Shown here: piece by piece, positions 22,094-43,080 of the stretch
Numbering within the stretch: the stretch's first letter is position 1
How the letters are laid out: each line of letters starts with the position of its first letter
NCBI GenBank assembly: GCA_964554805.1
Contig: CAZKPX010000003.1
Location: 76,366-140,365 of the forward strand
DNA length: 64,000 nt
Direction of reading: 5' to 3'
Origin: an uncultured Candidatus Saccharibacteria bacterium
GTDB taxonomy: Bacteria > Patescibacteriota > CAZHWT01
Notes under the pieces: generated by a model
What the model saw: only the letters and a program-made list of their open reading frames with translations
The model's database searches: none
What the model was told of the DNA's origin: nothing
Made by a program: the position numbers and the translations under genes

Positions 22094-22118
22094 CATCAGC
22101 CTCAACCAGTGTTATACT
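22091..22118 (+). promoter_or_regulatory. Candidate sigma70 promoter (TTGCAT, 16 nt, TATACT) for the 22150-29292 gene string
   Basis: ttgcat at 22091-22096 and tatact at 22113-22118, about 30 nt upstream of the ATG at 22150. Confidence 0.45.
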
Positions 22119-22149
22119 AGCTTAGTCTAGCTGTAGGCTGGTTGATTTT

Positions 22150-30165: not shown

Positions 30166-30246
30166 TGGATGTTGGATTGGTTGCCTGTTGGGGTGGTATA
30201 CGGTACTATGAATAGTACAACCAGATGAGTAATCTGGGACTGTCCT

Positions 30247-31977
30247 ATGTTTTTGAATATTGATATAAGCTCTCCATTTTTTCAGTTTGGTGGGATGCTG
30301 GTGTTGGCATCGATAATTGGTTTGGTTTGTTATCGTCTGAAGAAGCCGTTGTTTTTTGCGTACCTGGCGACGGGGGTGTTGGTTGGTGTGGCCATGGGTG
30401 GCGACTTTGCTCATTCTGAAACAATTCACTTGTTCTCTGAATTGGGGATTGCTTTCCTGCTGTTCTTGATTGGGATGGAATTTAACCTGAAAGATATTCG
30501 GCATATCGGCAAAATCGGTTTGGTGGCTGGGTTAGGGCAGATCGCTATTGTCGGGACAATTAGCTTTAGCGTGGCGGTGTGGTTTGGTTTGGCTGTTTTG
30601 CCGTCTATTTATGTGGCTCTGGCCATGACTTTTGCCTCGATGGTTATTTCAGTTAAATATCTCAATGACCATCAAGCTACTGAAACGCTCTATGGCAAGG
30701 TGGATTTGATGATGCACTTGGTGCAGTCAGTGGTGGCTGTGTTGGCTTTGATGGTGTTGTCGACGGTGGCTGCTATTAATTGGCAGAGTCGGGGTGATAT
30801 AGCAGTCTGGGTGATAGATTTTGCGTTGTTGTTGACCAAGGGGGCGTTGCTGCTGGTGTTGTATATTTACCTTAGTCAGGCGGTTTTGCCAAAGATATTT
30901 AAGATGATGGCCGGATCGACAGAGCTATTGGTGTTGGGAAGTGTTGCCTGGTGTGTTTTTGGGGCCGGCTTGGCCTATGTGTTTGGGTTCTCGGTAGAAG
31001 TCGGCGCATTTTTGGCGGGATTAGCTTTGTCGAGTTCGGGGTATCAGTTTCAGGTGACAGCTCGAATTAAGCCAATTCGAGATTTTTTTGTGGTGGTGTT
31101 CTTTATTGGTCTGGGTATTCAAGTGACCAACTTTTCATTGTGGGAGGTGTTGTTGTCGGCCTTGGTGTTGAGCGCGGTGGTATTGGTATTGAATCCGTTG
31201 GTGTCGACGATTTTATTGAGCAGATTGGGCTACAAGCGACATACGGCTTTTTTTGCTTCGATTTTGATGAATCAGATTGGGGAATTTTCAGTTATTCTGG
31301 CGGCTTTGGGAGTTAGTTTGCATCATTTATCAGCCCAAGAGGGGTCTTTGATCACGACGACGGTGCTGTTGACGATGTTGGCTTCCAGTTATGTGATTGA
31401 TCATCAACAATGGGTTTATAAAAAGCTGCGTCCGTTGTTGGCTTGGTTGGAGCGGTCGGACGGTAAAGAGCTGAGGCTGCGCAAAAAGATCTGGAGTGAT
31501 CATGTGGTAGTGCTGGGCGCACATCGGCTGGGTAGTGATGTGTTGGATACATTGCGCAAGGGACGAGCTAAGATGTTGGTGGTGGATTATGATCCGGATC
31601 GGGTGGCCTTGCTTGAAGAAGATGGCTATGCGGTGATTTATGGCGATGCAGTGGATGAGAGTGTTTTGGAGGAGGCAGGTGTTTCCGCTGCTCGGCTGAT
31701 TATTTCAACTATTGATGATGATCCCTCTACGAGACAACTATTGAGAGAGCTGCGTCAGCAAAAAGTTGATGCGCCGGTGGTGGTGACGGCTACAACTATT
31801 AATGAAGCCTTGGATTACTACCGCTTGGGAGCAGCCTATGTTATCATTCCGATGCTTTTGGGTGGCAAGGCTATCACTCAAGTGGTTAAGGATCATTTGA
31901 GTGAAATTCATCCGTTGGAGCCGGCTAAGTTGCTTCATTTGCAGCATTTGGCGGCGGAGGGGTATTTGATGCGCTAG
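30247..31977 (+). CDS. Kef-type CPA2 monovalent cation/proton antiporter with C-terminal RCK/TrkA-N domain
   Basis: 12-13 TM helices, then the Rossmann RCK motif HVVVLGAHRLGSDV...DAVDESVLEEAGV. Confidence 0.8.
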   Translation: MFLNIDISSPFFQFGGMLVLASIIGLVCYRLKKPLFFAYLATGVLVGVAMGGDFAHSETIHLFSELGIAFLLFLIGMEFNLKDIRHIGKIGLVAGLGQIAIVGTISFSVAVWFGLAVLPSIYVALAMTFASMVISVKYLNDHQATETLYGKVDLMMHLVQSVVAVLALMVLSTVAAINWQSRGDIAVWVIDFALLLTKGALLLVLYIYLSQAVLPKIFKMMAGSTELLVLGSVAWCVFGAGLAYVFGFSVEVGAFLAGLALSSSGYQFQVTARIKPIRDFFVVVFFIGLGIQVTNFSLWEVLLSALVLSAVVLVLNPLVSTILLSRLGYKRHTAFFASILMNQIGEFSVILAALGVSLHHLSAQEGSLITTTVLLTMLASSYVIDHQQWVYKKLRPLLAWLERSDGKELRLRKKIWSDHVVVLGAHRLGSDVLDTLRKGRAKMLVVDYDPDRVALLEEDGYAVIYGDAVDESVLEEAGVSAARLIISTIDDDPSTRQLLRELRQQKVDAPVVVTATTINEALDYYRLGAAYVIIPMLLGGKAITQVVKDHLSEIHPLEPAKLLHLQHLAAEGYLMR

Positions 31978-32018: not shown

Positions 32019-33245
32019 ATGGCATTTTTTACTATTTTGAAAACTGACACTAAAACCAAGGCTCGACGGGGAGTTATTTCGACGGAGCATGGCGATATTC
32101 AGACGCCGGCATTTTTTCCGGTGGGTACGCAGGGGACTGTTAAGTCATTGTCTCAGCAAGAGTTGTGGGATATGGGGGCGCGGTTGATTTTGGGTAATAC
32201 CTATCATTTATATTTGCGTCCGGGAGCTGATATTGTGGCAGAAGCGGGCGGTTTGCATGAGTTTCAGCAGTGGAAGGGGGCTTTGTTTACTGATAGTGGA
32301 GGGTTTCAGGTGTTTAGTTTGGGGTTGGGACTGGAGAATAAGCGACAGGCGACGAGCGACAGGCGACGAGAGGGGAGTCAGAAGGTGGATGCGATACGTC
32401 ATTTGCCTCAGGGGATGTTGGCTAAGGTGGATGAGGAGGGAGTAACTTTTAGGTCTCATTTAGATGGGTCGATTCATCGGTTTACGCCGGAGATTTCGTT
32501 GGCTACTCAGCATAAGATTGGCGCAGATATTATTTTGTCTTTTGATGAGTGTGCGCCGCATCCTGCCAGCTATGACTATACTCGTCAGGCAATGGAGCGA
32601 ACTCATCGATGGGCTAAGCGAGGACTTGATTATCATCAGGAGCATAAGCAGAGCCATCAGCATCTGTTTGGCATAGTGCAGGGTGGGGTGTATGAAGATT
32701 TGCGAGTGGCATCGGCCAAGTATATTGATAGCTTGGACTTTGATGGGTATTGTGTCGGCGGAGTATCAGTAGGGGAGTCTAAGGAGGAAATGGACAGGGC
32801 AGTTCGCTGGACCACGCCTTTGCTCGACCCGAGCAAGCCTCGACACTTGTTGGGAGTGGGGGATATTGATGATATGTTCAGAGGGGTGGAGCAGGGCATT
32901 GATACCTTTGATTGTGTGACACCGACTCGGTGGGGGCGCAATGGGACATTGATTGTTCACCCTGAAACAGCCAAAGAAGAAGGTTCGGCCAATCCGTATC
33001 GACTGATTATTACTAATAATAAATATCGAAATGACTTCCGACCGCTTGATCCACGCTCCGACAACTGGGCCAGTCGCACCTATAGCCGAGCTTACCTGCA
33101 CCATTTGTTTAGGGCTAGTGAAATCTTGGGTGTGCGGATTGCTTCTTATCATAATGTGGCGACGATGTTGCAGTTGGCTGAAAAGATGAGAGCCAGCCTA
33201 GAGGATGATAGTTGGGATGCTTTGAAGAAGGAATATTTGGTATGA
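32019..33245 (+). CDS. tgt: Queuine tRNA-ribosyltransferase with a repeat-encoded insertion and a degenerate zinc site
   Basis: Conserved motifs [27 protein letters not shown] and [9 protein letters not shown]. A 28 aa insert ([18 protein letters not shown]) is encoded by (GCGACR)n at 32335-32372. The CxCxxC zinc ligands are replaced ([11 protein letters not shown]). Confidence 0.85.
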   Translation: [408 protein letters not shown]

Positions 33246-33330
33246 GTTGGGCTGAATGGTTGATCCATTTTGAATATAGTGCGGTCATGGTCTTGGCAAA
33301 TCGTGCTACCTGGTGGGATAGATTGGAAGG

Positions 33331-34359
33331 TTGGGGATTATGACCAGTCGACGACGAACCCAGCGGGCTGCCTCTCGCCGCCGCAGTCCGTTGATGAAAT
33401 GGCTACCATGGATACTCCTGGTGGTGGTTATTGTGCTGGTTGGGTGGTGGATTGTAGCCAGTTATGTGGGATTGAAGGATAGGGTGCAGCCGGTGGAGGA
33501 TAGCGCTAATAGCCATGGATTTATCAGGAGTCAGGCCGGACAACGGTCGACTATGCTCCTGATTCAGTCGAGTGACTCAGGGGAGACTATTGAGAAGTTG
33601 GCTATTGTTCAAGCTGATTTTGAAACATCAAAGGTTACGGTATTGTTGTTGCCGACCAACTTGTCAGATGGGCAGACTGCCGCCAATGCTTTTTGGCGAG
33701 CGGGGTATTACAAAGAGTTGCAGCAGATGGTGGAAGGACAGCTAGGATTGCCCATAGATGGTTACTTGATAGAAGAGAATGCCAATCAAACATCAAGTTG
33801 GAGCGATGTATTGACGATGGATGTGCCAATGAGCTGGATTGGGACTGGGGTGGGCTTGCCGGTTTGGCTTGCGTCATTTGGGGAGATTAAAACGACGTTG
33901 GTGTGGAATGATTATTTGCAGTTGTTGTGGATGATTCGGTCGGCTACTGTTAGAGAAGAGTTAGCCGTGACTTTGCCTGAGCAGGGTATGGTGGAGACGG
34001 ATGGCTTGGTGGTGCTGAAACCTGAGTTGGTCGATGCTCGTATTGAGGAATTGCTTGGTGATCCGCGGATTATAGAAAGCAAGACAACAGTGGTGGTGGA
34101 GAATGCTACTACAGCCAGTGGCTTGGCTTCGCAAATGGGTCGGTTTGTAGCAAATATGGGAGGCGAGGTGGTAGCGACGGTGCCGGCGGATGGACCTGAA
34201 ACGAGGTCGCAGCTGATTGCCGACAAGGAGAGTGTTTTGACTCAGCAATTGAGTAGATTTTTGGGGATTCCGTTGACGATTAAGGAGAGGTCTGGGCGTG
34301 AACGGTCGGAAGTTGAATTGGTGTTGGGGTCGGATGCACTAGGGCGGTTGGGGAGGTAG
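33331..34359 (+). CDS. LytR-CpsA-Psr (LCP) family cell-envelope polymer transferase
   Basis: N-terminal TM anchor, MLLIQSSDSGE (LCP core DSR-like), C-terminal LytR_C-like domain (KTTVVVENATTASGLASQMGRFV). Confidence 0.55.
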   Translation: MGIMTSRRRTQRAASRRRSPLMKWLPWILLVVVIVLVGWWIVASYVGLKDRVQPVEDSANSHGFIRSQAGQRSTMLLIQSSDSGETIEKLAIVQADFETSKVTVLLLPTNLSDGQTAANAFWRAGYYKELQQMVEGQLGLPIDGYLIEENANQTSSWSDVLTMDVPMSWIGTGVGLPVWLASFGEIKTTLVWNDYLQLLWMIRSATVREELAVTLPEQGMVETDGLVVLKPELVDARIEELLGDPRIIESKTTVVVENATTASGLASQMGRFVANMGGEVVATVPADGPETRSQLIADKESVLTQQLSRFLGIPLTIKERSGRERSEVELVLGSDALGRLGR

Positions 34360-34460
34360 GAGCTATAAAATTCTAAATTCCTAAATCCTCATCCGTCAGC
34401 TGGGGGAGGCGGTCTAAATCCCTGAATACGCGGGGAATGTGCGGGAAATATTTGGCTACA

Positions 34461-34493
34461 AAAAAACCACCGATTTTGGGTGGTTTTTTTGCC
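34461..34493 (+). terminator. Rho-independent terminator
   Basis: aaaaaaccacc-gattttg-ggtggtttttttgcc. Confidence 0.65.
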
Positions 34494-34878
34494 GCATTAT
34501 AGTTAACGAAAAAAGGTTAAAAATAATACGAAGAAAGGAGAGAGACAAAAGCAGTGTATCATAGATATGGTTATCTGTCAACACCTGTGATTGAAATTGG
34601 TGGAATTAGGCAAATCATTCACAATTATCCTTCGTGTCATGTTGATGCTTGGCTGTATTTTTTGCCTATTTAGCAGGACAATAGCCGCTTTTGTATCAAA
34701 AGACTTTCTTTGATGTGGTACAATAAGCAGGTTATGAGACTAGCTAGTTTGCCTAGACGGGCTGTCTTGTGAGTTATATGTAGGCCCGATAGTGTACTTA
34801 TAACAAAAGATTATTTGAGATTATTTGAACATTTAGGCTGCGAAAGAGATGAGTAGAGAAAATAAGTCGTAATACATT

Positions 34879-37575
34879 ATGTTGTTATTAATTTTGGCAC
34901 TGTTTATTACCGGCACCATTTGTGTGGCATGGACTGTGGCTGGTAGACGAGTAGATGAGGATAAGGAGCCGCAAGAAGTGGTGGAAGGTACCTTGCTGTC
35001 TATTTTGGTGCCAAAAGAGAATGATAAGTCGCCAATGTCAGCTGAAATGATGTTTGCCTCACTGCATGGCTTGTTAAAGAGAACTCCTGGTTTGGAAGAA
35101 CATTTAAGTTTTGAAATTGTGGCCAACAACGACGGTATTCGGTTTTTTGTTTATTTGCCGTCGTATTTCCGAACTTTTGTCGAGGGCCAAATTTATGCTC
35201 AGTATCCCAACGCCAATATAGTTGAGGTAGAGCAAGATTATGCCAAGCACTTTTCGTCTGAGAAGGCTGTGGTGACTGCGGCTGAAATCTCTTTGAGTAA
35301 GGAGTATTTTTATCCTATTAAGACCTTTGTTGATTTTCAGGTTGATCCCTTGGCGGCCGTTACCGGAGCGGTGGAGAGATTGGAAGAAGGCGAGCAGGTT
35401 TGGATTCAGCTACTGCTTCGACCGCTGGACGATGTCTGGCAAGAAGCAGGTTACGCTTATGTAGAAAAAGTTAAAGCCGGTAAAAAAGAGTCACAAGATG
35501 GTTTTTTGATGGCTATTGTGAAGGGCGTGATGGGGGAGCTGGGTATGAATTTGCCGGGAACCGCTTTTGGGATGACGCCAGCTGAAGGGGCTGCTGCAGA
35601 TAAAAAGCCCGAAGGGCCAAAGTTGACGGCTGGTCAAGAGCTGGAGTTGAAGGCTATAGAAAATAAGATGACTAAGCTGGGCTTTGAAACTGCTTTGCGA
35701 ATTGTGGCAGTGGGCGAGACCGCTCAAGCTTCTCAACAATCACTTAATTCAGTTATTGCCTCGCTACGTCAATTTTCGATGACTCATCTTAATAGTTTTA
35801 AGTTATCCGAATTGGATCGAAGTGCCGAAGAGATTTTTTATGAATATCAAGCTCGATCTTTCCCGATTGATGAAGAGAGCTTCTTTGTCTTGAATGCTGA
35901 AGAAGTAGCTTCTATTTTCCATTTGCCAAATAGCTCAGTTGAAACGCCGACTATTGCCTGGAGCAAGTCTAAGCAGCTCGAGCCACCATTAAATCTGCCT
36001 CAAGATGTAAATACTGTCTTTGCTAAAACTGCTTTCCGGAATCGATCGGTACCGTTTGGTATACAGCGCGAGGATCGTCGTCGTCACATGTATATGATCG
36101 GAAAGACCGGTACTGGTAAGTCGACCTTGATGGAAAATATGATTATGCAGGATATTTTGGCTGGTGAAGGTTTGGCCATTATGGATCCGCATGGCGATAC
36201 TATTGATCGATTGCTGGACAATATTCCAGAGCACCGAATCAAAGATGTGGTGTTGTTTGACCCATCAGACACAGCGCATCCGGTCAGCATGAACATGTTA
36301 GAGATGATTAATGAGGAGCAGAAGAGCGTTATGGCTTCGGCCTTGGTGGATGTGTTTAAGCGGCGTTTTGACTCTTGGGGGCCTCGACTTGAATATTTGC
36401 TGCGTAATTCTATTTTGACATTGCTGGAAGTGCCAAATACGACTCTATTGGGCATTAATCGATTGTTGATTGATAAAGAGTATCGCAAATATATTGTGAG
36501 CTTGATCGAAGATGAGCAGTTGCGGAATTTTTGGAATAAAGAGTATGCGACCATGGCCTCTAATGATCGATTGATCACCGAAGCTGTAGCTCCGATTCAA
36601 AACAAGGTAGGTCAGTTCTTGCAGACGCCGATTATCCGCAATATTGTCGGTCAGGCCAAGTCGACTATTCGGGTTGAGGATATTATTAATGAGAATAAGA
36701 TTTTCTTGATTAACTTGTCCAAGGGTAAAATCGGTGAAGATAACTCGTCGATGTTGGGTGGAATGATTATTTCTCGCCTGCAGAATGCGGCCATGGCTCG
36801 AGTGAATATTCCCGAAGATCAACGTAAAGACTTTTATGTGTATGCTGATGAGTTCCAGAACTTTGCTACGTCCAGCTTTGCCACGATTTTGTCTGAGGCT
36901 CGTAAGTATCGTCTTAATCTGATTATCACTCACCAATATATTAGCCAGATGCCAGATGAGGTGCGGGAGGCTGTGTTTGGTAACGTTGGGACAACCGTTT
37001 CCTTTACGGTCGGACCAAGTGATGCGACGGTGCTGGCTAGTCAGTTTGCACCAGTATTGCAACCTGAGGATATGGTGCGGCTGGAGAAGCATCATATCTA
37101 TGTTAAATTGATGATTGATGGTATGGAGTCTCGTCCATTTAGTGCCTCGACTTTGCCGCCGATTGCTCGCCACGAAGGCCATAAAGCGGCTATCATTGAA
37201 GCTTCTAGGCTTCAGTATGCACCTAAAACAGCGGCTGAAGTGGAGGAGCGAATTGCCAAGTGGAATATGAAGAAGTTCCAGATTGGGGTAGACGATGTAT
37301 CGGTTAAGCGGATGCGAGATGGTTCGCGCGCAAATGCAGAAGAGGTCAAGGCATCTTCATTGCCAGCTAGTACAGATTCTATCATGCCTCCTCGTCACGA
37401 GCGAGTTATTGGGGCAGGTGGAGCAGAAGCACCTACGGTAGTCACCCCAACTATCATTCGGGGAGTTCCAGGTGGCGTTGGTCATACAACCGTTGTTCGG
37501 CATGTGGCCACTTCCGGATCTAGCGGCGAAATCATCTTGAATAATTCAATTAATCACACAGATACACCACAGTAG
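34879..37575 (+). CDS. VirD4/TraD/TraG-like (type IV coupling protein family) P-loop ATPase with N-terminal TM anchor and a roughly 400 aa unknown N-terminal domain
   Basis: Walker A MIGKTGTGKSTLMEN followed by IMDPHGD. Walker B FYVYADEFQNF, then ARKYRLNLIITHQYISQM (T4CP-type C-motif). One N-terminal TM. Confidence 0.55.
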   Translation: MLLLILALFITGTICVAWTVAGRRVDEDKEPQEVVEGTLLSILVPKENDKSPMSAEMMFASLHGLLKRTPGLEEHLSFEIVANNDGIRFFVYLPSYFRTFVEGQIYAQYPNANIVEVEQDYAKHFSSEKAVVTAAEISLSKEYFYPIKTFVDFQVDPLAAVTGAVERLEEGEQVWIQLLLRPLDDVWQEAGYAYVEKVKAGKKESQDGFLMAIVKGVMGELGMNLPGTAFGMTPAEGAAADKKPEGPKLTAGQELELKAIENKMTKLGFETALRIVAVGETAQASQQSLNSVIASLRQFSMTHLNSFKLSELDRSAEEIFYEYQARSFPIDEESFFVLNAEEVASIFHLPNSSVETPTIAWSKSKQLEPPLNLPQDVNTVFAKTAFRNRSVPFGIQREDRRRHMYMIGKTGTGKSTLMENMIMQDILAGEGLAIMDPHGDTIDRLLDNIPEHRIKDVVLFDPSDTAHPVSMNMLEMINEEQKSVMASALVDVFKRRFDSWGPRLEYLLRNSILTLLEVPNTTLLGINRLLIDKEYRKYIVSLIEDEQLRNFWNKEYATMASNDRLITEAVAPIQNKVGQFLQTPIIRNIVGQAKSTIRVEDIINENKIFLINLSKGKIGEDNSSMLGGMIISRLQNAAMARVNIPEDQRKDFYVYADEFQNFATSSFATILSEARKYRLNLIITHQYISQMPDEVREAVFGNVGTTVSFTVGPSDATVLASQFAPVLQPEDMVRLEKHHIYVKLMIDGMESRPFSASTLPPIARHEGHKAAIIEASRLQYAPKTAAEVEERIAKWNMKKFQIGVDDVSVKRMRDGSRANAEEVKASSLPASTDSIMPPRHERVIGAGGAEAPTVVTPTIIRGVPGGVGHTTVVRHVATSGSSGEIILNNSINHTDTPQ

Positions 37576-37594
37576 TATTAACGAGGAGGTTGTT

Positions 37595-38743
37595 ATGTCC
37601 GAAATAGTATCTCAACAAATTTCTCAACAAGCCTGGGATAATCTTCAGCAACAGGTTAAAACATTGCATGATCAGGTTCAAAGCCTGCAGGCCCTCATGA
37701 CCAAAGCTGGTTTGATAGCGGCCGAAGAAGGCGTGGTTGGAGTATATGAGGGTGAAACAATGGTGGCTGCTGATGGCAGTCGTTATCCGGTGCCACCGAA
37801 TTATGCTTCAAAAACAATGTTGGTATCTGGCGATAGTCTGAGAATGATAGAGCCTGTCGATGGCGGTCAAGCAAAGTATAAGCAAATCGGCAAGGCAGAG
37901 CGGTTGAAGGCTGAGGGATTGCTGGCCAAGAAGGATGGCAAGTTTGAAGTGCTGACCGATCAGGGGTCATTTAAAGTGCTACAGGCAGCGGTTAAGCATT
38001 ATGAAGGCGAAGTTGGTGACACGGTGTTGGTTCAATATGCAAAACAGCATGTCAAGGGTAGTTGGGCAGCTATTGAGAAAATTATTCCGGCAGCCAGTCG
38101 AGCTAGCGCTGCGCCAGCTGCTAATTCGGTGTCGGCCGGGGTTATTAATCCAGCCATGCCGATGCCTACATCAAATATTGTTCAGATAAAACATGCACAT
38201 GCGGCACAAGATATAGCTAAAAGTGAATCAACCGCAACGGCTCCGCAGGCTGTATCTGACCTAGCAGCACCAGTCGCCGCTACTCCTGCTCCTGCTGAGC
38301 CTAAAGCGCCACCTGCTAAGTCAGTTAAGCAAGTGGAGAAGTCGGCTACAGCTGATCAGGCTTCTCGTGCTCCTCGCCAGCAACCTGAGCGAAAACCTCG
38401 GTCGGAGGCTAAACCTAATTCTAGTGGACGCGCTTCGGGCAATCAGCGGAGTGGAGGTGGACGTTCTGATACGGGCGGTCGTTCTGATGCAGGCGGCCGT
38501 CAGCCGTCCGGTTCTGGCCCCAAGAAACCTGGGTTGGGCTCAGCAGCTCGCCCTGCAGCCAAGAAGCCTGGAAGTAGTGGCAGTAGTGGCAGTAGTAGTA
38601 GCGGATCAGCTGCGCCGCGCAATCAAGCGCCTAGGCCAGTAGCAGCAGTGGCACCTAAGCGCGGAGAAGAAGATCGCCCTCTGCCGGTAGATCGAGGCGA
38701 GATCTTGCCAATGGCTGAGTTTGATGATGATGAGTTGATGTAA
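37595..38743 (+). CDS. Hypothetical protein: a roughly 180 aa folded N-terminal domain, then a roughly 190 aa Ser/Gly/Pro/Arg-rich disordered tail, ending in the acidic EFDDDELM
   Basis: GAGGAGG SD. The tail contains RSGGGRSDTGGRSDAGGR and SSGSSGSSSSGS. A 20 nt gap after the ATPase gene suggests an operon. Confidence 0.45.
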   Translation: MSEIVSQQISQQAWDNLQQQVKTLHDQVQSLQALMTKAGLIAAEEGVVGVYEGETMVAADGSRYPVPPNYASKTMLVSGDSLRMIEPVDGGQAKYKQIGKAERLKAEGLLAKKDGKFEVLTDQGSFKVLQAAVKHYEGEVGDTVLVQYAKQHVKGSWAAIEKIIPAASRASAAPAANSVSAGVINPAMPMPTSNIVQIKHAHAAQDIAKSESTATAPQAVSDLAAPVAATPAPAEPKAPPAKSVKQVEKSATADQASRAPRQQPERKPRSEAKPNSSGRASGNQRSGGGRSDTGGRSDAGGRQPSGSGPKKPGLGSAARPAAKKPGSSGSSGSSSSGSAAPRNQAPRPVAAVAPKRGEEDRPLPVDRGEILPMAEFDDDELM

Positions 38744-38886
38744 ATTTCCCTGCGGTTGTATGGGTGAGGTAAGGGTGGTTGGCCTCGGGGCATCTGTGCT
38801 CGGGCACTTCCCGATACGAGTACGAGTGACGAGGACGAGTTATTGAAAGAGGTTGGTCGAAGTTTATGGGTAGGAGTAATAAAATA

Positions 38887-38913
38887 GAGACCCGGGAGGG
38901 TCTCTATTTTTTA
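38887..38913. terminator. Bidirectional rho-independent terminator between convergent genes
   Basis: agagaccc-ggga-gggtctct followed by tttttt. Confidence 0.65.
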
Positions 38914-39732
38914 GTATTCGTTGGCGGAGTAGTTGCCGTCTTCGTCTTCTCTCATTTGCTCGAGAGAGACAGAGTCGAAGTCGTCATCGGGGTGGTTGCT
39001 GCTATCAGCACTTTCGCTATCCCAGTTGTCTACTTCTTCATCGACTAAATTGCCATCAGCTAATGGATCGTCGCTGGCGAGATGACGATCTCGGGCAGAT
39101 AGGTTGGCGTGACTAGTGGAGGAGTGACTCTTGGTGAAGGATATAAACTTGCTGGCTGCAGCTGATTGGTGGAGTTCTCGTAAAAAAACTTGAGGTTGAT
39201 CAGAGGTGCTCATCAGGTGGGCTGAATAGGTGTTGCCGAGACCGATAAGATTTTTGAGATGGCTGCTGAGGTCTTCTTCGAGGAAGCCGAGAACCTGGTC
39301 TTTGGGAGAGAGTAGGGCTAGCTGACCGTTTTTATCAGCAATTTCTAGTTGTTGACCAGAGGCGAATTTGGCAATCTTTTTTAATTCAGGTTTGAAAATA
39401 TTAGCGATCCGGGTGCGACCTGGCTCGTCTAAGAAAAGCTCAGTATGAGAATGGCTAAGGCTGAGAGATGTGCCATGAATCAGCTTTTCAAGGTTTTTTT
39501 GAGCGATAGAATTGTAGGGGTCGATGTCAAGGACTTGTTGATAGGTTTGTTTGGCCTGGTCCTTTTGGCCAGTTTCTTGGAGCGCTCTGGCTAAACGGTT
39601 GAGAGTCTCAATGCTTTTGGGGTTATCCTCGAGATATTCTTTGTTGAGAGCAATCGCTTCTTGCCATTGTTGACCAAGGGCGGCTTTGACAGCTCTGCTG
39701 GCTAAATCTTCTAGTTCTAAAACGGTTTTCAT
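38911..39732 (-). CDS. TPR-repeat protein with an acidic C-terminal tail
   Basis: Three to four TPR-like helical repeats (AIALNKEYLEDNPKSIETLNRLARALQETGQKDQAKQTYQQVLDIDPYN). The C-terminal 80 aa are D/E/S-rich. Confidence 0.5.
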   Translation of the reverse strand: MKTVLELEDLASRAVKAALGQQWQEAIALNKEYLEDNPKSIETLNRLARALQETGQKDQAKQTYQQVLDIDPYNSIAQKNLEKLIHGTSLSLSHSHTELFLDEPGRTRIANIFKPELKKIAKFASGQQLEIADKNGQLALLSPKDQVLGFLEEDLSSHLKNLIGLGNTYSAHLMSTSDQPQVFLRELHQSAAASKFISFTKSHSSTSHANLSARDRHLASDDPLADGNLVDEEVDNWDSESADSSNHPDDDFDSVSLEQMREDEDGNYSANEY

Positions 39733-39998
39733 GAGGTCTCCTTATCCAAGTGGCTGCATATAGACGAGCTGTATTATACCGAAAGTTTTTAAAATTACAA
39801 TATTAACGGAAATGACTTGTCTGGGATGCGATCAAAGAGGCAGCCGTCTCAGATAACTAGCTGGCTTTGGGTATTGATCTTTGCTATAATAAGGGTCGTT
39901 TTACGGCTTGTCAATAATAAGTATGTGGATTTGATCAAGCAGAATATCAATTAAAAGGGCTAGTTTGATTGTTATAGACGAGTGAAAGGATTTTTGTT

Positions 39999-40706
39999 AT
40001 GTCAGGACATAGTAAATGGTCAACTATTAAGCGAGCCAAGGGCGCGGCTGATGCCAAGCGTGGTTTGCAATTTTCAAAATTATCTCGGGCTATTACTGTA
40101 GCTGCTAAGCAAGGTGGGCCGGATCCTGCAGCTAACTTGCGCTTAAAAATGGCAGTTGAAGCGGCCCGTGCGGCAAGTATGCCTAAGGATACAATTAATA
40201 GAGCCATCGAAAAAGCCAGTGCTACGGGTGGTGATTCTATTGAGGAATTAGTGTATGAAGGGTATGGCCCTGGTGGAGCAGCCTTGTTGATTGAAGTGCT
40301 GACTGATAATCGCAACAGATCAATTGCTGAGGTGAGGACTATCTTGAATAAGAATGGCGGAAGTATGGGTGACTCCGGATCGGTGGCCTGGCTGTTTAAG
40401 AATCAAGCTATTATTGAGCTGGCGATAGCGGGGCATGATGTTGATGAGTTGTCTATGGCGGCCATTGAGGCCGGTGCTAATGATTTGAATGCTGAGGATG
40501 ATCGATTAGTGGTTTTGAGTGATGTGGAGGCAGCTGGAGCCGTTGTCGAGGCGTTGTCGGTCTATGGCGATGTGGCGACTACCAGTCAGTTGATGCCAAA
40601 TACTCCACTAGAGCTATCTAAAGAAGATGAGGAGAAATTGGTGCATTTGGTGGAGCTTCTGGATGATAATGATGATGTGTCCAATGTGGCGACAAATGCG
40701 CTTTAG
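39999..40706 (+). CDS. yebC: YebC/PmpR-family transcriptional regulatory protein
   Basis: MSGHSKWSTIKRAKGAADAKRG is the invariant YebC N-terminus. 235 aa. Confidence 0.9.
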   Translation: MSGHSKWSTIKRAKGAADAKRGLQFSKLSRAITVAAKQGGPDPAANLRLKMAVEAARAASMPKDTINRAIEKASATGGDSIEELVYEGYGPGGAALLIEVLTDNRNRSIAEVRTILNKNGGSMGDSGSVAWLFKNQAIIELAIAGHDVDELSMAAIEAGANDLNAEDDRLVVLSDVEAAGAVVEALSVYGDVATTSQLMPNTPLELSKEDEEKLVHLVELLDDNDDVSNVATNAL

Positions 40707-40761
40707 AACGAGGGTGCATATAGAGTAAGATTTAGACGAGCTGATAGAAAGTTGGCTGATT

Positions 40762-41559
40762 ATGGTAACAATTACATGGCCGAGGGTACGTATTGCTAAG
40801 CGCCAGAAGCTGGTTTTGTTGTCGATTGGCTTGACAGTATTGATGGCTGGTAGCCTGATTTTTAGTTGGCCATTATGGAGCGGCTTATTGTTGGTAGGTT
40901 TGGCTTGGGTAGGTTTGGCTTACTGTTTTGAGTGGGACTTGAAGGCGGAGGAGTGGCTATTAATTCCATTGCCGTTGTTAATGGCAGTTAGCGGAGCCTT
41001 TGGTTGGCTCCGATTGTACTCGGTGACGCCTTGGCTGGTGACTGTTGGCTGCTTGGCGTTTGGCATAGCAGTCTATGGACTGTTGCTGACGCTAAATATT
41101 ATTAATTTATCTCGAGTTAAAACGTTGCCATTGGCCAGAACTGCAACAAGCGTGTTGTCGATGGCCAGTCTGACAGTTGGCTTCTTATGGTATTATTTGT
41201 GGCTCTATTATCAGCCGGCTTATATAGTATGGGTGACTGGAGCGATTTTGATTAGTCTGGCTGTTGCTTGGCCGATTATATGGATTGCATTGACAGGGAA
41301 GATGGTAGTGTGGCGTAGTTTGGCCTGGCTGGGTTTGTTGGGACTGATTATGGGTCAATTGGCGGCTTTGGTGGGCTTGTGGCCGCGGTCATTTATGACT
41401 AGTTTATTTTTGGCTGGAAGTTTGTACCTGGTCTTGGGCGTCATCCATTATCAGGAGAAGCGGCAGGTTAATAAAATAATGAACCGTCAGTATACGGTGG
41501 TATTTGGCATCATGTTGGTAGCGTTGTATGTATTTACTAGTTGGTATGGTGGGATATAG
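40762..41559 (+). CDS. Hypothetical polytopic membrane protein
   Basis: 7-8 hydrophobic helices, Trp/Leu-rich, no motif recognised. Confidence 0.45.
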   Translation: MVTITWPRVRIAKRQKLVLLSIGLTVLMAGSLIFSWPLWSGLLLVGLAWVGLAYCFEWDLKAEEWLLIPLPLLMAVSGAFGWLRLYSVTPWLVTVGCLAFGIAVYGLLLTLNIINLSRVKTLPLARTATSVLSMASLTVGFLWYYLWLYYQPAYIVWVTGAILISLAVAWPIIWIALTGKMVVWRSLAWLGLLGLIMGQLAALVGLWPRSFMTSLFLAGSLYLVLGVIHYQEKRQVNKIMNRQYTVVFGIMLVALYVFTSWYGGI

Positions 41560-41939
41560 CAGCTAACCTCCGAGGTTCGGCGGTTAGGGCGACGAGCGAC
41601 GAGTACGCTTTGGGTATTTATCTGGGATAAGGGTGGGGAATAGAGGAGTTAATTGGCAGGGGGTGGGGAAGAGCGATAACTCATAGTTTTGTACTATAGG
41701 ACATATTTTCCATAAAAGTGAGCGTGGAAAGTTAATTTTGTGGATATCTTGGTTGAATGGAAGAAGTGAGCAGGAGGAGAAAACAGGGAAAAATGATACA
41801 GTATGATGCAGTTGGGTGAAGGATATTGAGGCGGAGTGGAGTGAGAGGGGTGATTGATAACGATTATTGATAATTGCTATAGGTCTTCTTTTAACAAGGA
41901 TTGAGCTCAAGGGCGCAATCTAGGCAAGTTATGAATATA

Positions 41940-43080
41940 CTATAGGGTATTTGTTTACTCAAAAAAAGAGTGGTGACTGGAGAGAGTGGAAGTGGTGGAT
42001 AGGGGTAAAAAAATTGGCAAAAATTTGGATGAATTTGGCTTTGACTGGGCAGATAAGGCGAAAATAAACGAAATTTTTGGGAAAATTTTACGAATTTTGA
42101 GGCTAAAACCTAAAATTTGTCAGGACGATAGGTGGACTGCTAATGATAAGCGTATGGATGAGGATATATGGAGCTGATCGACTGGCTGATTAGATAGTTT
42201 AGTTGAGGCTAAAACTCGATTTAGGGGCTCAGGTGTAGGAAGAGTTGGGCCGCATTAGGAATGAATTTTATGGTGGATTGGTATATGGTGGACCTCTCTC
42301 GCTCTGCTGGCGGCCGAGAGAGGTGGTCTTGTAGCCTACTACACGTCTCTAAAGATACATTTAAAGACGTCTTATTTAATTTCACAAATCAGCTCTCCCC
42401 TATGGATTTTGTTACATACAAGACTGCAAATATTTACTAAAATTTTCGATACTATTTGGCCTTTCTGCGGCTGGTCCACTAGCCTCAAAATGCTGTATCT
42501 GAAAAATTATCGAAATTTTGCCAATCTGTTCCCTATTTGAGGCTAAGCTTCGGTAATTTGGGTGATCGTTGTGCGAATTTGTGGCTAATTTAGGCCGTTT
42601 TGCCCGACCTCTCTCCCCTGCTCGGCAGCTTTTAGCAGGTAATACTGCCCTGGTGCTGGCAATTTTAGGCACAACTGGCAGGCTGGTCGTCTTGCCTGCC
42701 AAGGGGTTGCGCAGGGGGATGGTTACCAAAGCTTGTTAAGAGCTTTGGTGAGTGACGGGCGACGGGCGACGAGAGGGTGTGTGGATAGTAGGATTTGGGC
42801 TGTTTTTTATTCGGGATGCGTATCAACACGTCGCTTGTCGCACGTCTCTGGATTTTTTAGCCTTGTGACAGCTAAATTAGGTAGCGAGGCGCTAGAAGGG
42901 GTCTAGATGGCGTTTTGGTAATTTAGACCTTTCAATATACCTATTTGGTTTTAATTTGAGTGGCATATTCTCCTGCATGTATGAATTATGATGATTTTGA
43001 GACATGAGACATGCCTAGCTGACCTCCGGAAGTGTCTGAGATCGCTTGCATCTTGACGGCTGACGCTTTACCCTAGATAC
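41940..43080. other. 1.1 kb non-coding stretch upstream of the recombinase, carrying at least 6 copies of a TTTGAGGCTAA(AAC) motif in both orientations plus short hairpins
   Basis: ttgaggctaaaac at about 42105 and 42203, tagcctcaaaatg at about 42481, ttgaggctaagc at about 42537, related ggctaatttagg and ggcaattttagg, hairpin cctctctcg...cgagagagg at 42292-42322. Only weak small ORFs. Confidence 0.5.

What the first reader, a model, noticed from the sequence alone, without database searches (positions are those of the whole stretch)
34879..38743. VirD4/TraD-like coupling ATPase with a novel 400 aa N-terminal domain, co-transcribed with a protein carrying a long RGG/SG-rich disordered tail ending in DDDELM
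The 898 aa protein has a single N-terminal TM and the T4CP-type motif set (GKTGTGKST...IMDPHGD, ADEFQNF, ARKYRLNLIITHQ). It is preceded by about 400 residues with no recognisable motif.

Twenty nucleotides downstream, with a strong GAGGAGG SD, is a 382 aa protein. Its first half is ordered. Its second half is about 190 aa of Ser/Gly/Pro/Arg/Ala low complexity (RSGGGRSDTGGRSDAGGR, SSGSSGSSSS), ending in an acidic tip (EFDDDELM) reminiscent of the SSB-type acidic docking tail.

No relaxase, VirB4 or pilin genes are adjacent. A lone coupling-type ATPase with a disordered nucleic-acid-binding-like partner could be a DNA-uptake, DNA-transfer or secretion module different from canonical T4SS, for example one linked to an epibiotic or DNA-scavenging lifestyle.
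Basis: partly seen in the sequence, partly recalled or inferred. Interest (0 to 1): 0.6.

Follow-up and report, generated by a model that had tools for sequence, protein, structure and literature searches.

The report
Orphan secretion-type ATPase with tethered partner
This is a membrane-anchored motor ATPase of the conjugation "coupling protein" type that nearly all ultra-small Patescibacteria carry away from any secretion genes; here it sits in an undescribed three-gene unit with a small barrel-fold protein whose long floppy tail ends in a conserved acidic tip, and with a TPR protein that may read that tip.

Summary
Both genes are real, and every quoted motif is at the stated coordinates.

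**The ATPase.**
- The "novel" N-terminal domain is already Pfam DUF8128. Its predicted fold matches the N-terminal domain of VirB4/TrwK.
- The motor domain is TrwB/VirD4-like by profile search.
- The family is catalogued in the literature as an enigmatic orphan coupling protein. One Saccharibacteria copy is non-essential.
- Distant full-length homologues occur in Bacillus phages. In phage G the homologue lies next to VirB6-like and VirB4-like genes.

**The partner.**
- It belongs to an unannotated family of about 1,100 clusters at 50% identity.
- Its parts are a long helix, two OB/cold-shock-like barrels, a variable disordered linker and a conserved [D/E]3-L-x C-terminus.
- It follows a DUF8128 ATPase in 22 of 49 informative loci.
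- The acidic E-L tail motif co-occurs with an adjacent TPR gene in 23 of 24 loci that have it, against 1 of 38 that lack it.

**Best reading.** A coupling-protein-like translocase with an accessory adaptor that docks on a TPR protein. The substrate is unknown. The family is known; the module is a new variant. Interest is moderate.

The parts
34460..34490 (+). A-run / CCACC-loop-GGTGG / T-run hairpin. It is terminator-like and closes the upstream LytR_C gene, so it marks the start of a separate transcription unit.
   Evidence: Read from the sequence. The block is conserved in relative L003 while the flanks have diverged.
34879..37575 (+). 898 aa DUF8128 / coupling-protein-like ATPase gene.
34882..34953 (+). 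Single N-terminal membrane helix (residues 2-25), followed by RR. This implies an N-out, C-in topology.
   Evidence: Sequence. AlphaFold predicts a helix at residues 2-25. The topology is inferred from the positive-inside rule.
34987..36003 (+). DUF8128 domain (about residues 37-375). It is alpha/beta with a VirB4 N-terminal-domain-like fold and ends at the conserved EPPLNLP motif.
   Evidence: Homologues carry PF26449. The model has pLDDT 81.8. The top 14 Foldseek PDB hits are all TrwK/VirB4, E 1e-6 to 1e-4. BFVD hits include phage G gp155 (VirB4-like) and gp156. The gene is split exactly after this motif in 13 loci.
36049..37278 (+). TrwB/VirD4-type P-loop motor domain (about residues 391-800). 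Walker A GKTGTGKS is at 36100-36123 and Walker B FYVYADEF at 36832-36855.
   Evidence: Pfam TrwB_AAD_bind 8e-11 and DUF87 4e-8. TrwB (1e9r) is the best PDB sequence hit. The motif residues are invariant in 53 homologues.
37291..37572 (+). Variable, low-complexity C-terminal tail of the ATPase (about residues 805-898).
   Evidence: there is no conserved column after about residue 803.
37583..37589 (+). Shine-Dalgarno GAGGAGG, 5 nt before the partner's ATG. The intergenic gap is 19 nt.
37595..38743 (+). 382 aa partner gene.
37598..37705 (+). Partner N-terminal long helix (residues 2-37), a likely coiled-coil oligomerisation element.
   Evidence: AlphaFold predicts a helix at residues 2-37; overall pLDDT is 91.4. 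The oligomerisation role is inferred.
37730..38089 (+). Partner folded core (residues 46-165): two small beta-barrels of OB/cold-shock-like fold, with invariant NYASK, KQ, R.K and KKDGK motifs.
   Evidence: Foldseek PDB hits: RNase R/RNase II CSD1-CSD2 at E 2e-4, then IF1, the Rho RNA-binding domain and eIF5A.
38090..38716 (+). Partner disordered linker (residues 166-374). It is S/G/P/R/A-rich here and K/E/P-rich in relatives.
38717..38740 (+). Conserved acidic C-terminal tip EFDDDELM. The family pattern is [D/E]3-L-x-COOH.
   Evidence: Leu at the penultimate position in 111 of 123 homologues, and at least 3 acidic residues before it in 111 of 123. See also the alignment.
38881..38910 (.). 13-bp-stem hairpin flanked by A and T runs. 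It is a bidirectional terminator between the partner gene and the convergent TPR gene.
38911..39732 (-). 273 aa TPR protein: N-terminal TPR (residues 1-85), a conserved FLEEPGKT motif, a middle domain and an acidic tail. It is the candidate receptor for the partner's tip.
   Evidence: Pfam TPR_19 and related families. It is syntenic in all relatives whose partner has an EDELx tip. Alignment.

Best explanation
The 898 aa protein is a member of the Patescibacteria-wide DUF8128 / coupling-protein (T4CP)-like ATPase family.

**Shown.**
- It has one N-terminal membrane helix.
- It has a roughly 340 aa domain with the fold of the VirB4 N-terminal domain.
- It has an intact TrwB/VirD4-type P-loop motor.
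- It is co-transcribed with a 382 aa protein made of a long helix, two OB/cold-shock-like barrels, a disordered linker and a conserved [D/E]3-L-x C-terminus.
- A TPR protein is encoded convergently, directly downstream.

**Inferred.**
- The ATPase forms a hexameric ring on the cytoplasmic face of the membrane. It works like a coupling protein, receiving a substrate and feeding it through its pore.
- Nucleic acid is a more likely substrate than protein.
- The VirB4-like N-domain lets the ATPase dock where VirB4 subunits dock, on a T4SS-like inner-membrane platform encoded elsewhere.
- The partner is an accessory or adaptor factor, comparable in role to TrwA or TraM. It oligomerises through its helix and binds the substrate through its barrels.
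- Its flexible tail ends in an acidic E-L peptide that is captured by the neighbouring TPR protein, in the manner of EEVD-TPR clamps.
For: **The motor is coupling-protein-like.**
- TrwB_AAD_bind scores above its gathering cut-off, and TrwB and DotL are the only conjugation-type PDB sequence hits.
- The Walker A/B and R/Q motifs are invariant in 53 homologues.

**The N-domain has a VirB4-like fold.**
- The top 14 PDB fold hits are all TrwK/VirB4.
- Independently, the model matches phage G gp155, a VirB4-like ATPase with P-loop_TraG/AAA_10, and a 'type IV transporter component' in BFVD.
- The domain is a separable module. Thirteen lineages encode DUF8128 and the motor as two adjacent genes, split exactly after the conserved PPxNLP motif.

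**A distant homologue sits in a T4SS-like context.**
- Phage G gp156 is a full-length homologue (25% identity over 809 columns, E 4e-52).
- It lies in the coupling-protein position of a small cluster: TrbL/VirB6-like gp153, gp154, then VirB4-like gp155.

**The gene pair forms an operon.**
- The gap is 19 nt with a strong Shine-Dalgarno sequence, and terminators lie on both sides.

**The pair and the module are conserved.**
- The partner follows the ATPase in all syntenic relatives down to 48% ATPase identity.
- It follows the ATPase in 22 of 49 partner loci with enough upstream flank, across several tail types and in the arrangement ATPase-partner-ATPase.
- At least 28 of the top-120 ATPase hits and the top-120 partner hits share an identical longest-contig length.

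**The partner's fold and tip.**
- The model is confident (pLDDT 91.4) and its fold hits are OB/cold-shock RNA-binding barrels.
- The tip is conserved in 111 of 123 homologues.

**The tail motif tracks an adjacent TPR gene.**
- Among partners whose tail has an acidic ...E-L motif, 23 of 24 have a TPR gene immediately downstream. Among those without the motif, 1 of 38 do.
- This holds in two different gene arrangements: a convergent 273 aa TPR, and a co-directional 435-472 aa TM-TPR.
Against: **No T4SS in view.**
- The 64 kb window has no T4SS gene.
- In the published census only 148 of 5,713 Patescibacteria T4CP homologues lie near virB4. The homologues are in 96% of genomes, and the authors say exaptation to another function cannot be excluded (PMC12102498).
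- The Saccharibacteria copy SEML1_0293 is non-essential, while the T4SS cluster is essential (PMC10633639 supplement).

**Limits of the fold evidence.**
- The VirB4 link rests on fold alone. TM-scores are modest (0.36-0.40), and the DUF8128 sequence profile finds nothing in the PDB.
- The partner's barrel core is near neutral (mean net charge +0.8). Its fold hits are only E 2e-4 and weaker. No nucleic-acid binding has been shown.

**The partner is not tied to the ATPase.**
- About half of partner homologues are not next to the ATPase. They sit by FtsQ-like, DnaX, rplJ-rplL or TPR genes instead.
- Some partners adjacent to an ATPase lack the linker and tip altogether (L016).

**Limits of the tip-TPR correlation.**
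- It comes from essentially two clades, so the counts are not independent events.
- No interaction was modelled or measured.
Confidence: 0.45

Rival explanations
1. The ATPase has a housekeeping role independent of any T4SS. It has been exapted as a stand-alone membrane-anchored nucleic-acid translocase or remodeller. Examples are a motor for DNA uptake during natural competence or nucleotide scavenging, or a nucleoid- or transcription-linked function. The partner would be its nucleic-acid-binding cofactor.
For: - The family is near-universal, at about two copies per genome, and more widespread than VirB4 (PMC12102498).
- It lies in core-genome synteny with RluA, Na/H exchanger, TGT, YebC, RuvC and Xer across classes.
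- A sigma-70 region 4 + HARE-HTH DNA-binding protein is immediately upstream in 45 of 80 genome loci. That protein is essential in S. epibionticum.
- The partner has an OB-like fold.
- The T4SS cluster of S. epibionticum is described as lacking a coupling protein (PMC10633639).
Against: - Nothing links the family to competence genes in this window.
- The canonical DNA translocase FtsK exists separately and is essential in S. epibionticum.
- The only informative non-Patescibacteria context, phage G, puts the homologue beside VirB6-like and VirB4-like genes.
- A VirB4-like N-domain is hard to explain without a VirB3/VirB8-type docking platform.
Confidence: 0.25
2. The adjacency is conserved gene order without a shared mechanism. 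The partner works with the TPR protein in an unrelated cytoplasmic process, such as RNA binding or translation, or cell division. The ATPase acts separately.
For: - 27 of 49 partner loci have no ATPase upstream. In those, the partner lies next to FtsQ-like, DnaX, rplJ-rplL, Dus or CysS genes.
- The tail motif tracks the TPR gene, not the ATPase. The DGELxP clade shows 0 of 3 adjacent to an ATPase but 7 of 7 adjacent to a TPR gene.
- The fold hits are RNA-binding barrels: RNase R, IF1, Rho and eIF5A.
- Patescibacteria keep long syntenic housekeeping blocks.
Against: - The coupling is tight: a 19 nt gap with a Shine-Dalgarno sequence here, 3-80 nt in relatives, and a private transcription unit bounded by terminators.
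- The adjacency recurs in different neighbourhoods and with different ATPase paralogues, including ATPase_A-partner-sigma/HARE-ATPase_B. Inherited gene order alone does not predict this.
Confidence: 0.2
3. The partner is a translocated substrate rather than an adaptor. It would be a nucleic-acid-binding 'pilot' or effector protein whose disordered tail and acidic C-terminal tip form the export signal recognised by the coupling-type ATPase.
For: - The partner has a conserved extreme C-terminal motif on a disordered tail.
- It is co-transcribed with the ATPase.
- From general knowledge, not tested here: T4SS substrates carry C-terminal signals, and Dot/Icm effectors use Glu-rich C-terminal signals bound by the DotL-DotM coupling complex.
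Against: - Partners adjacent to an ATPase in Saccharibacteria-type loci lack both tail and tip (L013, L016, L107, L167).
- The tip co-varies with the TPR gene, not with the ATPase.
- The partner family is conserved like a housekeeping gene and does not vary as effectors usually do.
Confidence: 0.1

Closest known systems
Type IV coupling proteins (VirD4 / TrwB of R388 / TraD / DotL)
   Same: - The P-loop motor matches Pfam TrwB_AAD_bind above its cut-off.
- TrwB (1e9r) is the best solved-structure sequence hit.
- The protein is membrane-anchored at its N-terminus.
- It has a long insertion between Walker A and Walker B.
- It has a variable C-terminal tail.
- It has a small accessory protein encoded next to it.
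   Different: - It has one membrane helix, not two with a periplasmic loop.
- A 340 aa VirB4-like domain lies between the anchor and the motor.
- T4SS-DNA_transf and TraG-D_C score below their cut-offs, and the NCBIfam TraD/VirD4 models score far below theirs.
- No relaxase or mating-pair genes lie nearby.
- The gene is in the chromosomal core and is present in about 96% of Patescibacteria.
VirB4 / TrwK ATPases of type IV secretion systems
   Same: - Both have a two-domain layout: an N-terminal alpha/beta domain and a C-terminal motor of the FtsK/HerA superfamily.
- The N-domain model finds only TrwK/VirB4 chains at E<1e-3 in the PDB.
- It also finds a VirB4-like phage protein in BFVD.
   Different: - There is no sequence-level match to VirB4 families: NCBIfam VirB4_CagE scores 14 bits against a cut-off of 643.
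- The DUF8128 profile has no PDB hit.
- The motor is closer to TrwB than to VirB4 by profile search.
- TM-scores are only 0.36-0.40.
Orphan T4CP homologues of Patescibacteria (e.g. SEML1_0293 of Ca. Southlakia epibionticum; Pfam DUF8128 + TrwB_AAD_bind)
   Same: - Same family and same architecture: TrwB_AAD_bind at residues 402-719 in a 921 aa protein.
- Same NCBI name.
- Also unlinked to the T4SS cluster (PMC12102498).
   Different: - The window's copy belongs to a different sub-clade. It has a LytR_C gene upstream instead of the sigma/HARE-HTH gene, and a long-tailed partner plus a TPR gene downstream. SEML1_0293 is followed by a GNAT gene.
Bacillus phage G gp156 and relatives (phrog_5156; 0305phi8-36 ORF201, Basilisk gp102)
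   Same: - Full-length homology that includes the DUF8128 domain: phrog_5156 E 8e-89, gp156 E 4e-52, BFVD fold hit E 9e-22.
   Different: - Identity is only 18-25%.
- The gp156 alignment starts at about its residue 12, which leaves no room for an N-terminal membrane helix.
- These are phage genes. In phage G the gene is clustered with VirB6-like and VirB4-like genes.
- No partner homologue was seen.
Bacterial SSB (OB fold, disordered linker, acidic tip) - architectural analogue of the partner
   Same: - Both have beta-barrel nucleic-acid-binding-type folds followed by a variable disordered linker.
- Both end in a short conserved acidic C-terminal docking peptide.
   Different: - The partner has no Pfam SSB match.
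- It has two small barrels plus an N-terminal long helix.
- Its tip is [D/E]3-L-x, not D-[D/E]-I-P-F.
- The genome's own canonical SSB is at window 2-385.
EEVD-COOH / TPR carboxylate-clamp recognition (Hsp70/Hsp90 with Hop-type TPR domains) - mechanistic analogue only
   Same: - An acidic run ending in a hydrophobic residue, at or close to the free C-terminus of a flexible tail.
- A TPR protein as the proposed reader.
- The tail motif and the adjacent TPR gene co-occur in 23 of 24 loci that have the motif against 1 of 38 that lack it.
   Different: - There is no homology claim and no binding data.
- The TPR here has only about two repeats plus an unrelated middle domain.
- The resemblance is recalled from general knowledge and was not tested.

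Membership tests
Type IV coupling protein (VirD4/TrwB/TraD/TraG) | P-loop motor domain matching the curated T4CP profiles above their cut-offs. | tested here: inconclusive
   TrwB_AAD_bind scores 41.9 bits against a cut-off of 20.5, so it is met. T4SS-DNA_transf scores 18.6 against 20.1 and TraG-D_C scores 21.4 against 22.0, so both fall just below. The NCBIfam TraD/VirD4 equivalogs score 13-38 bits against cut-offs of 250-650.
Type IV coupling protein (VirD4/TrwB/TraD/TraG) | Intact Walker A, Walker B and downstream Arg/Gln motifs. | tested here: met
   GKTGTGKS, YADEF and ARKYRL...THQ are all present, and their residues are invariant in 53 homologues.
Type IV coupling protein (VirD4/TrwB/TraD/TraG) | N-terminal membrane domain with two transmembrane helices and a periplasmic loop. 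| tested here: not met
   There is only one hydrophobic helix (residues 2-25). It is followed by a 340 aa soluble alpha/beta domain.
Type IV coupling protein (VirD4/TrwB/TraD/TraG) | Genetic linkage to a relaxase and/or to mating-pair-formation genes (VirB4, VirB6 and others). | tested here: not met
   No such Pfam family occurs in the 64 kb window. The literature reports 148 of 5,713 homologues near virB4 (PMC12102498). A distant phage G homologue is linked to such genes.
Type IV coupling protein (VirD4/TrwB/TraD/TraG) | Couples a substrate (relaxosome DNA or effector) to a T4SS channel. | not testable with these tools
   This needs genetics or biochemistry.
VirB4 family ATPase | VirB4-type N-terminal domain. 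| tested here: met
   By fold only. The top 14 Foldseek PDB hits are all TrwK/VirB4, with E 1.2e-6 to 1.5e-4, probability 1.0 and TM-score (query) 0.36-0.40. In BFVD the model hits phage G gp155 (VirB4-like) at E 1.2e-7. There is no sequence-level support.
VirB4 family ATPase | Match to the curated VirB4 sequence models (NCBIfam VirB4_CagE; Pfam AAA_10). | tested here: not met
   VirB4_CagE scores 14.3 bits against a cut-off of 643. AAA_10 scores 20.1 against 27.5.
Pfam DUF8128 (PF26449) | Match of the N-terminal region to the PF26449 model. | tested here: inconclusive
   The model is absent from the local Pfam copy, so the window protein could not be scored. All 120 listed homologues (48-81% identical, aligned over the N-domain) carry precomputed PF26449, named DUF8128. 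Membership is very likely.
FtsK/SpoIIIE DNA translocase | FtsK_SpoIIIE motor domain, gamma domain and a 4-TM N-terminus. | tested here: not met
   FtsK_SpoIIIE has E 0.069 and 13 bits against a cut-off of 24, covering the P-loop only. A canonical, essential FtsK exists separately in S. epibionticum.
HerA / DUF87 helicase-type ATPase | DUF87 central domain together with an N-terminal HAS barrel and a nuclease partner. | tested here: inconclusive
   DUF87 scores 34 bits against a cut-off of 23.2, on the same region as the stronger TrwB_AAD_bind hit. The PADLOC HerA and mad8 hits cover the motor only. The N-domain is VirB4-like, not a HAS barrel. No nuclease gene is adjacent.
Single-strand DNA-binding protein (SSB), for the partner | Pfam SSB OB domain and a C-terminal D-D-D-I-P-F-type tip. 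| tested here: not met
   The partner has no Pfam or NCBIfam hit. Its tip is DDDELM. A canonical SSB with tip DEIPF is at window 2-385.
Ribosomal protein L7/L12 (the UniProt automatic name for partner homologues) | Ribosomal_L12 domains. | tested here: not met
   There is no Pfam hit at E<=1, and the fold is beta-barrels, not the L12 alpha/beta domain. The name is probably carried over from neighbouring genes, since the partner follows rplJ-rplL in L155.

The most novel reading that the evidence does not exclude
The DUF8128 ATPase, the barrel-linker-tip partner and the TPR protein form a Patescibacteria-specific membrane machine that works without a classical T4SS. In this reading:
- a VirB4/VirD4 hybrid motor moves single-stranded nucleic acid across the membrane, for import to scavenge nucleotides or for export to the host cell;
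- an SSB-like adaptor hands the nucleic acid to the motor;
- the adaptor's acidic E-L tip is read by a TPR clamp.

This would be a previously unrecognised nucleic-acid trafficking route, central to the host-dependent lifestyle of these bacteria.
Probability: 0.12. Interest if true: 0.8.

Novelty: new variant of a known kind. Interest (0 to 1): 0.45.

Why it matters
Patescibacteria make up a large share of bacterial diversity and depend on host cells, yet how they exchange material with hosts is largely unknown. Almost every genome carries about two of these orphan coupling-type ATPases. The literature lists them only as unexplained.

Three results here turn that annotation into experiments that can be done:
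- The N-domain has a VirB4-like fold.
- The domain can be encoded as a separate gene.
- One sub-family travels with an unannotated barrel-linker-tip protein, whose tail motif tracks a TPR gene.

The experiments that follow are peptide-TPR binding, nucleic-acid binding by the barrels, ATPase stimulation, and mutant phenotypes in genetically tractable Saccharibacteria.

The results also bear on how VirB4 and VirD4 ATPases diverged. If the module turns out to be only a conserved accessory of the known T4SS, the finding is useful but ordinary.

Tried and rejected
1. **FtsK replacement.** Rejected. Only the P-loop matches FtsK_SpoIIIE, and a canonical essential FtsK exists in S. epibionticum.
2. 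**Mobile element, ICE or plasmid remnant.** Rejected. There is no relaxase or T4SS gene. Composition and GC skew are uniform, and synteny with housekeeping genes is conserved across classes.
3. **Anti-phage defence system.** Rejected. PADLOC gives only generic motor-domain hits (mad8, HerA, DndH) and nothing for the partner, TPR or LytR_C proteins.
4. **Partner is SSB or ribosomal L7/L12.** Rejected.
5. **Programmed read-through at the in-frame stop that splits the ATPase in 13 loci.** Rejected. The stops are TAA or TAG, and a new ATG follows within about 10-50 nt, so these are plain gene splits.
6. **Structured leader RNA in the 519 nt upstream gap or elsewhere in 33000-43200.** No Rfam match at E<=0.1.
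7. **Sequence-level link of DUF8128 to any solved structure.** None at E<=10. The same holds for the partner profile.
8. **SEML1_0292 as the partner's counterpart.** This is the gene after the S. epibionticum ATPase. It is a GNAT acetyltransferase, not a partner homologue.
10. **Narrow first search.** The first single-sequence search for partner homologues found only 7. A profile was needed to see the family.

Full report
**1. Observation**

The two ORFs are at the coordinates given: 34879..37575 (+) encodes 898 aa and 37595..38743 (+) encodes 382 aa. Every quoted motif is present.
- The ATPase has one N-terminal hydrophobic helix (residues 2-25, followed by RR), Walker A GKTGTGKS (408-415), IMDPHGD, Walker B YADEF (655-659) and ARKYRLNLIITHQ.
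- The stop TAG (37573-37575) is followed by GAGGAGG (37583-37589) and the ATG at 37595.
- The partner's second half is S/G/P/R/A-rich and ends in EFDDDELM.

The two genes form their own transcription unit.
- A hairpin flanked by A and T runs lies at 34460-34490, after the upstream LytR_C gene. It is conserved in a relative.
- A hairpin with a 13-bp stem lies at 38881-38910, between the partner gene and a convergent TPR gene.

Pfam scans of almost all ORFs of 100 aa or more in the window found only housekeeping functions, with no relaxase, VirB4, VirB6 or pilin family. The whole window has a strong positive GC skew of one sign. The closest relatives are all Patescibacteria (CPR) contigs.

**2. 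The ATPase**

Profile searches place the motor (residues 391-715) in TrwB_AAD_bind, at 8e-11 and 41.9 bits against a cut-off of 20.5.
- DUF87 overlaps the same region.
- TraG-D_C and T4SS-DNA_transf fall just below their thresholds, and FtsK_SpoIIIE matches only the P-loop.
- The NCBIfam TraD and VirD4 models match only the Walker A region and score far below their cut-offs.
- TrwB is the best solved-structure sequence hit and DotL is a weak second.

The family is huge. More than 7,712 clusters score E<1e-5. [quoted passage not shown] All carry precomputed PF26449 + PF10412 (+ PF01935). PF26449 is DUF8128. The N-terminal 400 residues are therefore a catalogued but uncharacterised domain, not an unknown one.

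The published census of Patescibacteria T4SS genes reports three relevant points (PMC12102498):
- There are 5,713 VirD4-type homologues in 2,918 of 3,035 genomes.
- Only 148 of them lie near virB4.
- The authors say exaptation to another function cannot be ruled out.

In Ca. Southlakia epibionticum (PMC10633639 supplement):
- The homologue SEML1_0293 (921 aa, TrwB_AAD_bind at 402-719) is non-essential.
- The T4SS cluster is essential and is described as lacking a coupling protein.
- A canonical FtsK (SEML1_0096) is essential.
- A second T4CP-like protein (SEML1_0142) is essential.

**3. The N-terminal domain**

An AlphaFold model of residues 1-400, built on 53 sequences, has mean pLDDT 81.8. 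It shows the membrane helix followed by repeated beta-alpha-beta units.
- Against the PDB, Foldseek's top 14 hits are all chains of TrwK/VirB4 from the R388 T4SS (E 1.2e-6 to 1.5e-4, probability 1.0). The next hits are unrelated and weaker than 1e-3.
- The TM-scores are modest (0.36-0.40), and a DUF8128-only sequence profile finds nothing in the PDB. The link is therefore by fold only.
- It is corroborated independently in BFVD. The model matches Bacillus phage G gp156 (E 9e-22), gp155 (E 1e-7) and a "component of type IV transporter system" (E 2e-6). gp155 is a VirB4-like ATPase by Pfam (P-loop_TraG, AAA_10, DUF87).

The domain is a separable module. In 13 Paceibacteria-type loci the protein is encoded as two adjacent genes. 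They are split exactly after the conserved PPxNLP motif by an ordinary TAA or TAG stop, with a new ATG a few codons later.

The protein thus combines a VirB4-style N-domain with a VirD4/TrwB-style motor.

**4. Relatives outside Patescibacteria**

PHROG phrog_5156 matches the protein over its full length (E 8e-89). A tblastn search finds 67 phage records, nearly all from Bacillus phages.
- Phage G gp156 aligns from residue 41 to residue 792 at 25% identity (E 4e-52).
- It lies directly after gp153 (TrbL_4, VirB6-like), gp154 and gp155 (VirB4-like). That is the position a coupling protein would occupy in a minimal T4SS-like cluster.
- In Basilisk-type phages the homologue follows small membrane proteins, in an early or lysogeny region.

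**5. The partner**

A single-sequence search found only 7 homologues. The syntenic gene downstream of the ATPase in relatives is clearly homologous. Profiles built from these sequences found much more:
- 330 clusters in the word-indexed search.
- At least 566 metagenome loci.
- 1,102 representative clusters at 50% identity with E<=1e-3, of which 965 have E<=1e-10. The 150 listed are proteins of 144-382 aa.

None of the homologues listed has a Pfam domain. UniProt's automatic name, "50S ribosomal protein L7/L12", is not supported.

The AlphaFold model of residues 1-170 has pLDDT 91.4. It shows a 36-residue helix followed by two small beta-barrels.

Foldseek's PDB hits have a consistent theme: the CSD1-CSD2 pair of RNase R and RNase II (E 2e-4 to 8e-3), then IF1, the Rho RNA-binding domain, eIF5A and S1-like domains.

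After the core comes a linker whose length and composition vary freely. It is RGG/SG-rich here and K/E/P-rich in Woykebacteria-type relatives.

The extreme C-terminus is conserved as [D/E]3-L-x. Leu is penultimate in 111 of 123 homologues, and the same number have at least three acidic residues just before it.

The core's net charge is near neutral, with a mean of +0.8. A canonical SSB with the classical DEIPF tip is encoded at window 2-385. The partner resembles SSB in architecture only.

**6. Is the pair conserved?**

Partly.
- In relatives down to about 48% ATPase identity the order is constant: RR, RluA-like, Na/H exchanger, (TGT), LytR_C, ATPase, partner, TPR on the opposite strand, YebC, (RuvC), DUF5656, (Xer).
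- At least 28 of the top-120 ATPase hits and the top-120 partner hits share an identical longest-contig length.
- Across all partner loci with at least 3 kb of upstream flank, a DUF8128 ATPase lies immediately upstream in 22 of 49.
- These cases include sub-families with different tails, and an arrangement of ATPase_A, partner, sigma/HARE-HTH, ATPase_B in which the partner has no linker or tip at all (L016).
- In the remaining loci the partner lies by FtsQ-like, DnaX, rplJ-rplL, Dus or TPR genes.
- Conversely, ATPase orthologues in Dojkabacteria-type loci run straight into yebC, with neither partner nor TPR gene (L009-L012).
- In 45 of 80 genome loci the gene upstream of the ATPase is a sigma-70 region 4 + HARE-HTH protein.

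A neighbour-joining tree puts the window's copy in a clade with L001-L008. This clade is distinct from the main Saccharibacteria clade and from a deep "A" paralogue clade.

**7. Tail motif and TPR**

Among partner loci with enough downstream flank:
- All 10 with an EDELx tip have a TPR gene immediately downstream. It is convergent and encodes about 273-283 aa.
- All 7 classed as "DGELxP" have a co-directional TM-TPR gene of 435-472 aa downstream (confirmed as TPR by Pfam).
- Six more TPR-adjacent loci were classed as "none" by my pattern. On inspection they also carry ...D-G-E-L-K-P-L, ...E-D-G-E-L-S-P... or ...A-E-L-H tails.
- One E-L-tipped partner (L093) has no TPR neighbour.
- That gives 23 of 24 with the motif against 1 of 38 without it.

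The counts come from essentially two clades and are not independent events. Even so, the association holds across two different gene arrangements.

The TPR protein has about two TPR repeats with invariant N30, N45 and R46. These are followed by a conserved FLEEPGKT motif, a middle domain and its own acidic tail.

**8. Mechanism**

Shown:
- An intact, membrane-anchored, TrwB-type motor with a VirB4-like N-domain.
- A co-transcribed barrel-linker-tip protein.
- A syntenic TPR gene.

Inferred: the ATPase acts as a coupling-protein-like hexameric translocase on the cytoplasmic face of the membrane.
- Its N-domain gives it a VirB4-type docking surface for a T4SS-like platform encoded elsewhere.
- The partner is an oligomeric accessory or adaptor, comparable in role to TrwA or TraM. 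It engages the substrate with its barrels and is tethered through its tail tip to the TPR protein.

I put this at about 0.45. The main rival, at about 0.25, is that the family has been exapted to a T4SS-independent housekeeping role in nucleic-acid handling or uptake. That rival fits four observations:
- The family is near-universal.
- The Saccharibacteria copy is non-essential while the T4SS is essential.
- The genomic context is the conserved core.
- The recurrent neighbour is a HARE-HTH protein.

Two further readings remain open. The partner-TPR pair may work in an unrelated process (about 0.2), or the partner may be a secreted substrate (about 0.1).

**9. Novelty and verdict**

The ATPase is a new member of a known, catalogued family whose function is unknown. 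As far as the searched literature shows, the following are not described ("DUF8128" returns no paper):
- The VirB4-like fold of DUF8128.
- The fact that the domain can be encoded as a separate gene.
- The homologues in Bacillus phages, including the phage G copy beside VirB6-like and VirB4-like genes.
- The partner family.
- The correlation between tail motif and TPR gene.

I class the module as a new variant of a known kind. Interest is moderate at 0.45. A specialist would recognise the orphan T4CP at once, but the partner and TPR leads make its function testable.

Noticed in passing
window 42343-42372 (within the ORF-poor gap 41560-43080): A near-perfect palindrome, ACGTCTCTAAAGATACATTTAAAGACGTCT, with a dif-like layout of two 11 nt arms around a 6-7 nt spacer.
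- It lies about 700 nt upstream of a Xer-type tyrosine recombinase gene (43081-44073).
- It is conserved in relative L001 (13429-13457) and as a variant in L003, although the surrounding non-coding DNA has diverged.
- GC skew does not change sign anywhere in the window, so it is not at a replication terminus.
   Followed up: partly
Loci L029, L050, L066, L067, L070, L072, L074, L075, L078, L079, L080, L086, L088: In these Paceibacteria-type lineages the ATPase is encoded as two adjacent genes: a DUF8128 protein and a motor protein. The split falls exactly after the conserved PPxNLP motif. The stop is TAA or TAG and a new ATG follows a few codons later.
   Followed up: yes
45 of the 80 genome loci L009-L088 (e.g. 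L016 3755-4783): A roughly 340 aa protein with sigma-70 region 4 plus a HARE-HTH domain lies immediately upstream of the DUF8128 ATPase in most Saccharibacteria and several other classes. Its S. epibionticum counterpart, SEML1_0294, is annotated RpoS and is essential. It is absent from this window.
   Followed up: partly
L171 (Bacillus phage G, NC_023719.1 87772-93336): Phage G carries a small T4SS-like gene cluster:
- gp153 is TrbL_4 / VirB6-like.
- gp154 is small.
- gp155 is a VirB4-like ATPase.
- gp156 is a full-length homologue of the window's ATPase.

What such a cluster does in a 497 kb phage is unclear.
   Followed up: partly
L013, L016, L107, L146 (and L014, L034): Two DUF8128 ATPase paralogues lie in tandem. 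In the first four loci a short partner with no linker or tip lies between them. In L016 (and L013) a sigma/HARE-HTH gene also lies between them. The first copies form a deep separate clade.
   Followed up: partly
window 29383-30504 (- strand): A 373 aa ORF with a weak IS200-like Y1 transposase match (E 2.4e-5). It sits in a roughly 950 nt segment between the RluA-like gene and the Na/H exchanger gene. That segment is absent from relative L001, so it looks like a lineage-specific insertion. The ORF overlaps the annotated start of the exchanger ORF.
   Followed up: no
P0050, P0108, P0183; L061: ATPase and partner homologues occur on MAG contigs labelled 'Candidatus Nanoarchaeia archaeon'. P0108 and P0183 have the same longest-contig length (24,434 nt) and so probably share a contig. 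A Saccharibacteria-type ATPase occurs on a contig labelled 'Bulleidia sp.'. These are probably mis-binned or mislabelled Patescibacteria contigs.
   Followed up: no
window 34530-34586: A block of about 57 nt (ACGAAGAAAGGAGAGAGACAAAAGCAGTG...TGTCAACACC) in the long 5' gap before the ATPase gene is conserved between the window and relative L003. The rest of the gap is not conserved. It has no Rfam match. It could be a promoter or operator, or a small ORF.
   Followed up: no
window 2-385: The C-terminal part of a canonical SSB (Pfam SSB, 1.7e-24) runs in from the window edge. Its tail ends in DINPDEIPF. It serves as an internal contrast to the partner's DDDELM tip.
   Followed up: yes
window 58570-63447; also 893-4346, 20597-23625 and 53258-54757 (-): A 1,625 aa protein has only faint MG2 and WxL-interacting-domain hits. 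Several further ORFs of 330-500 aa have no Pfam match at all. These are typical unannotated Patescibacteria surface or unknown proteins.
   Followed up: no
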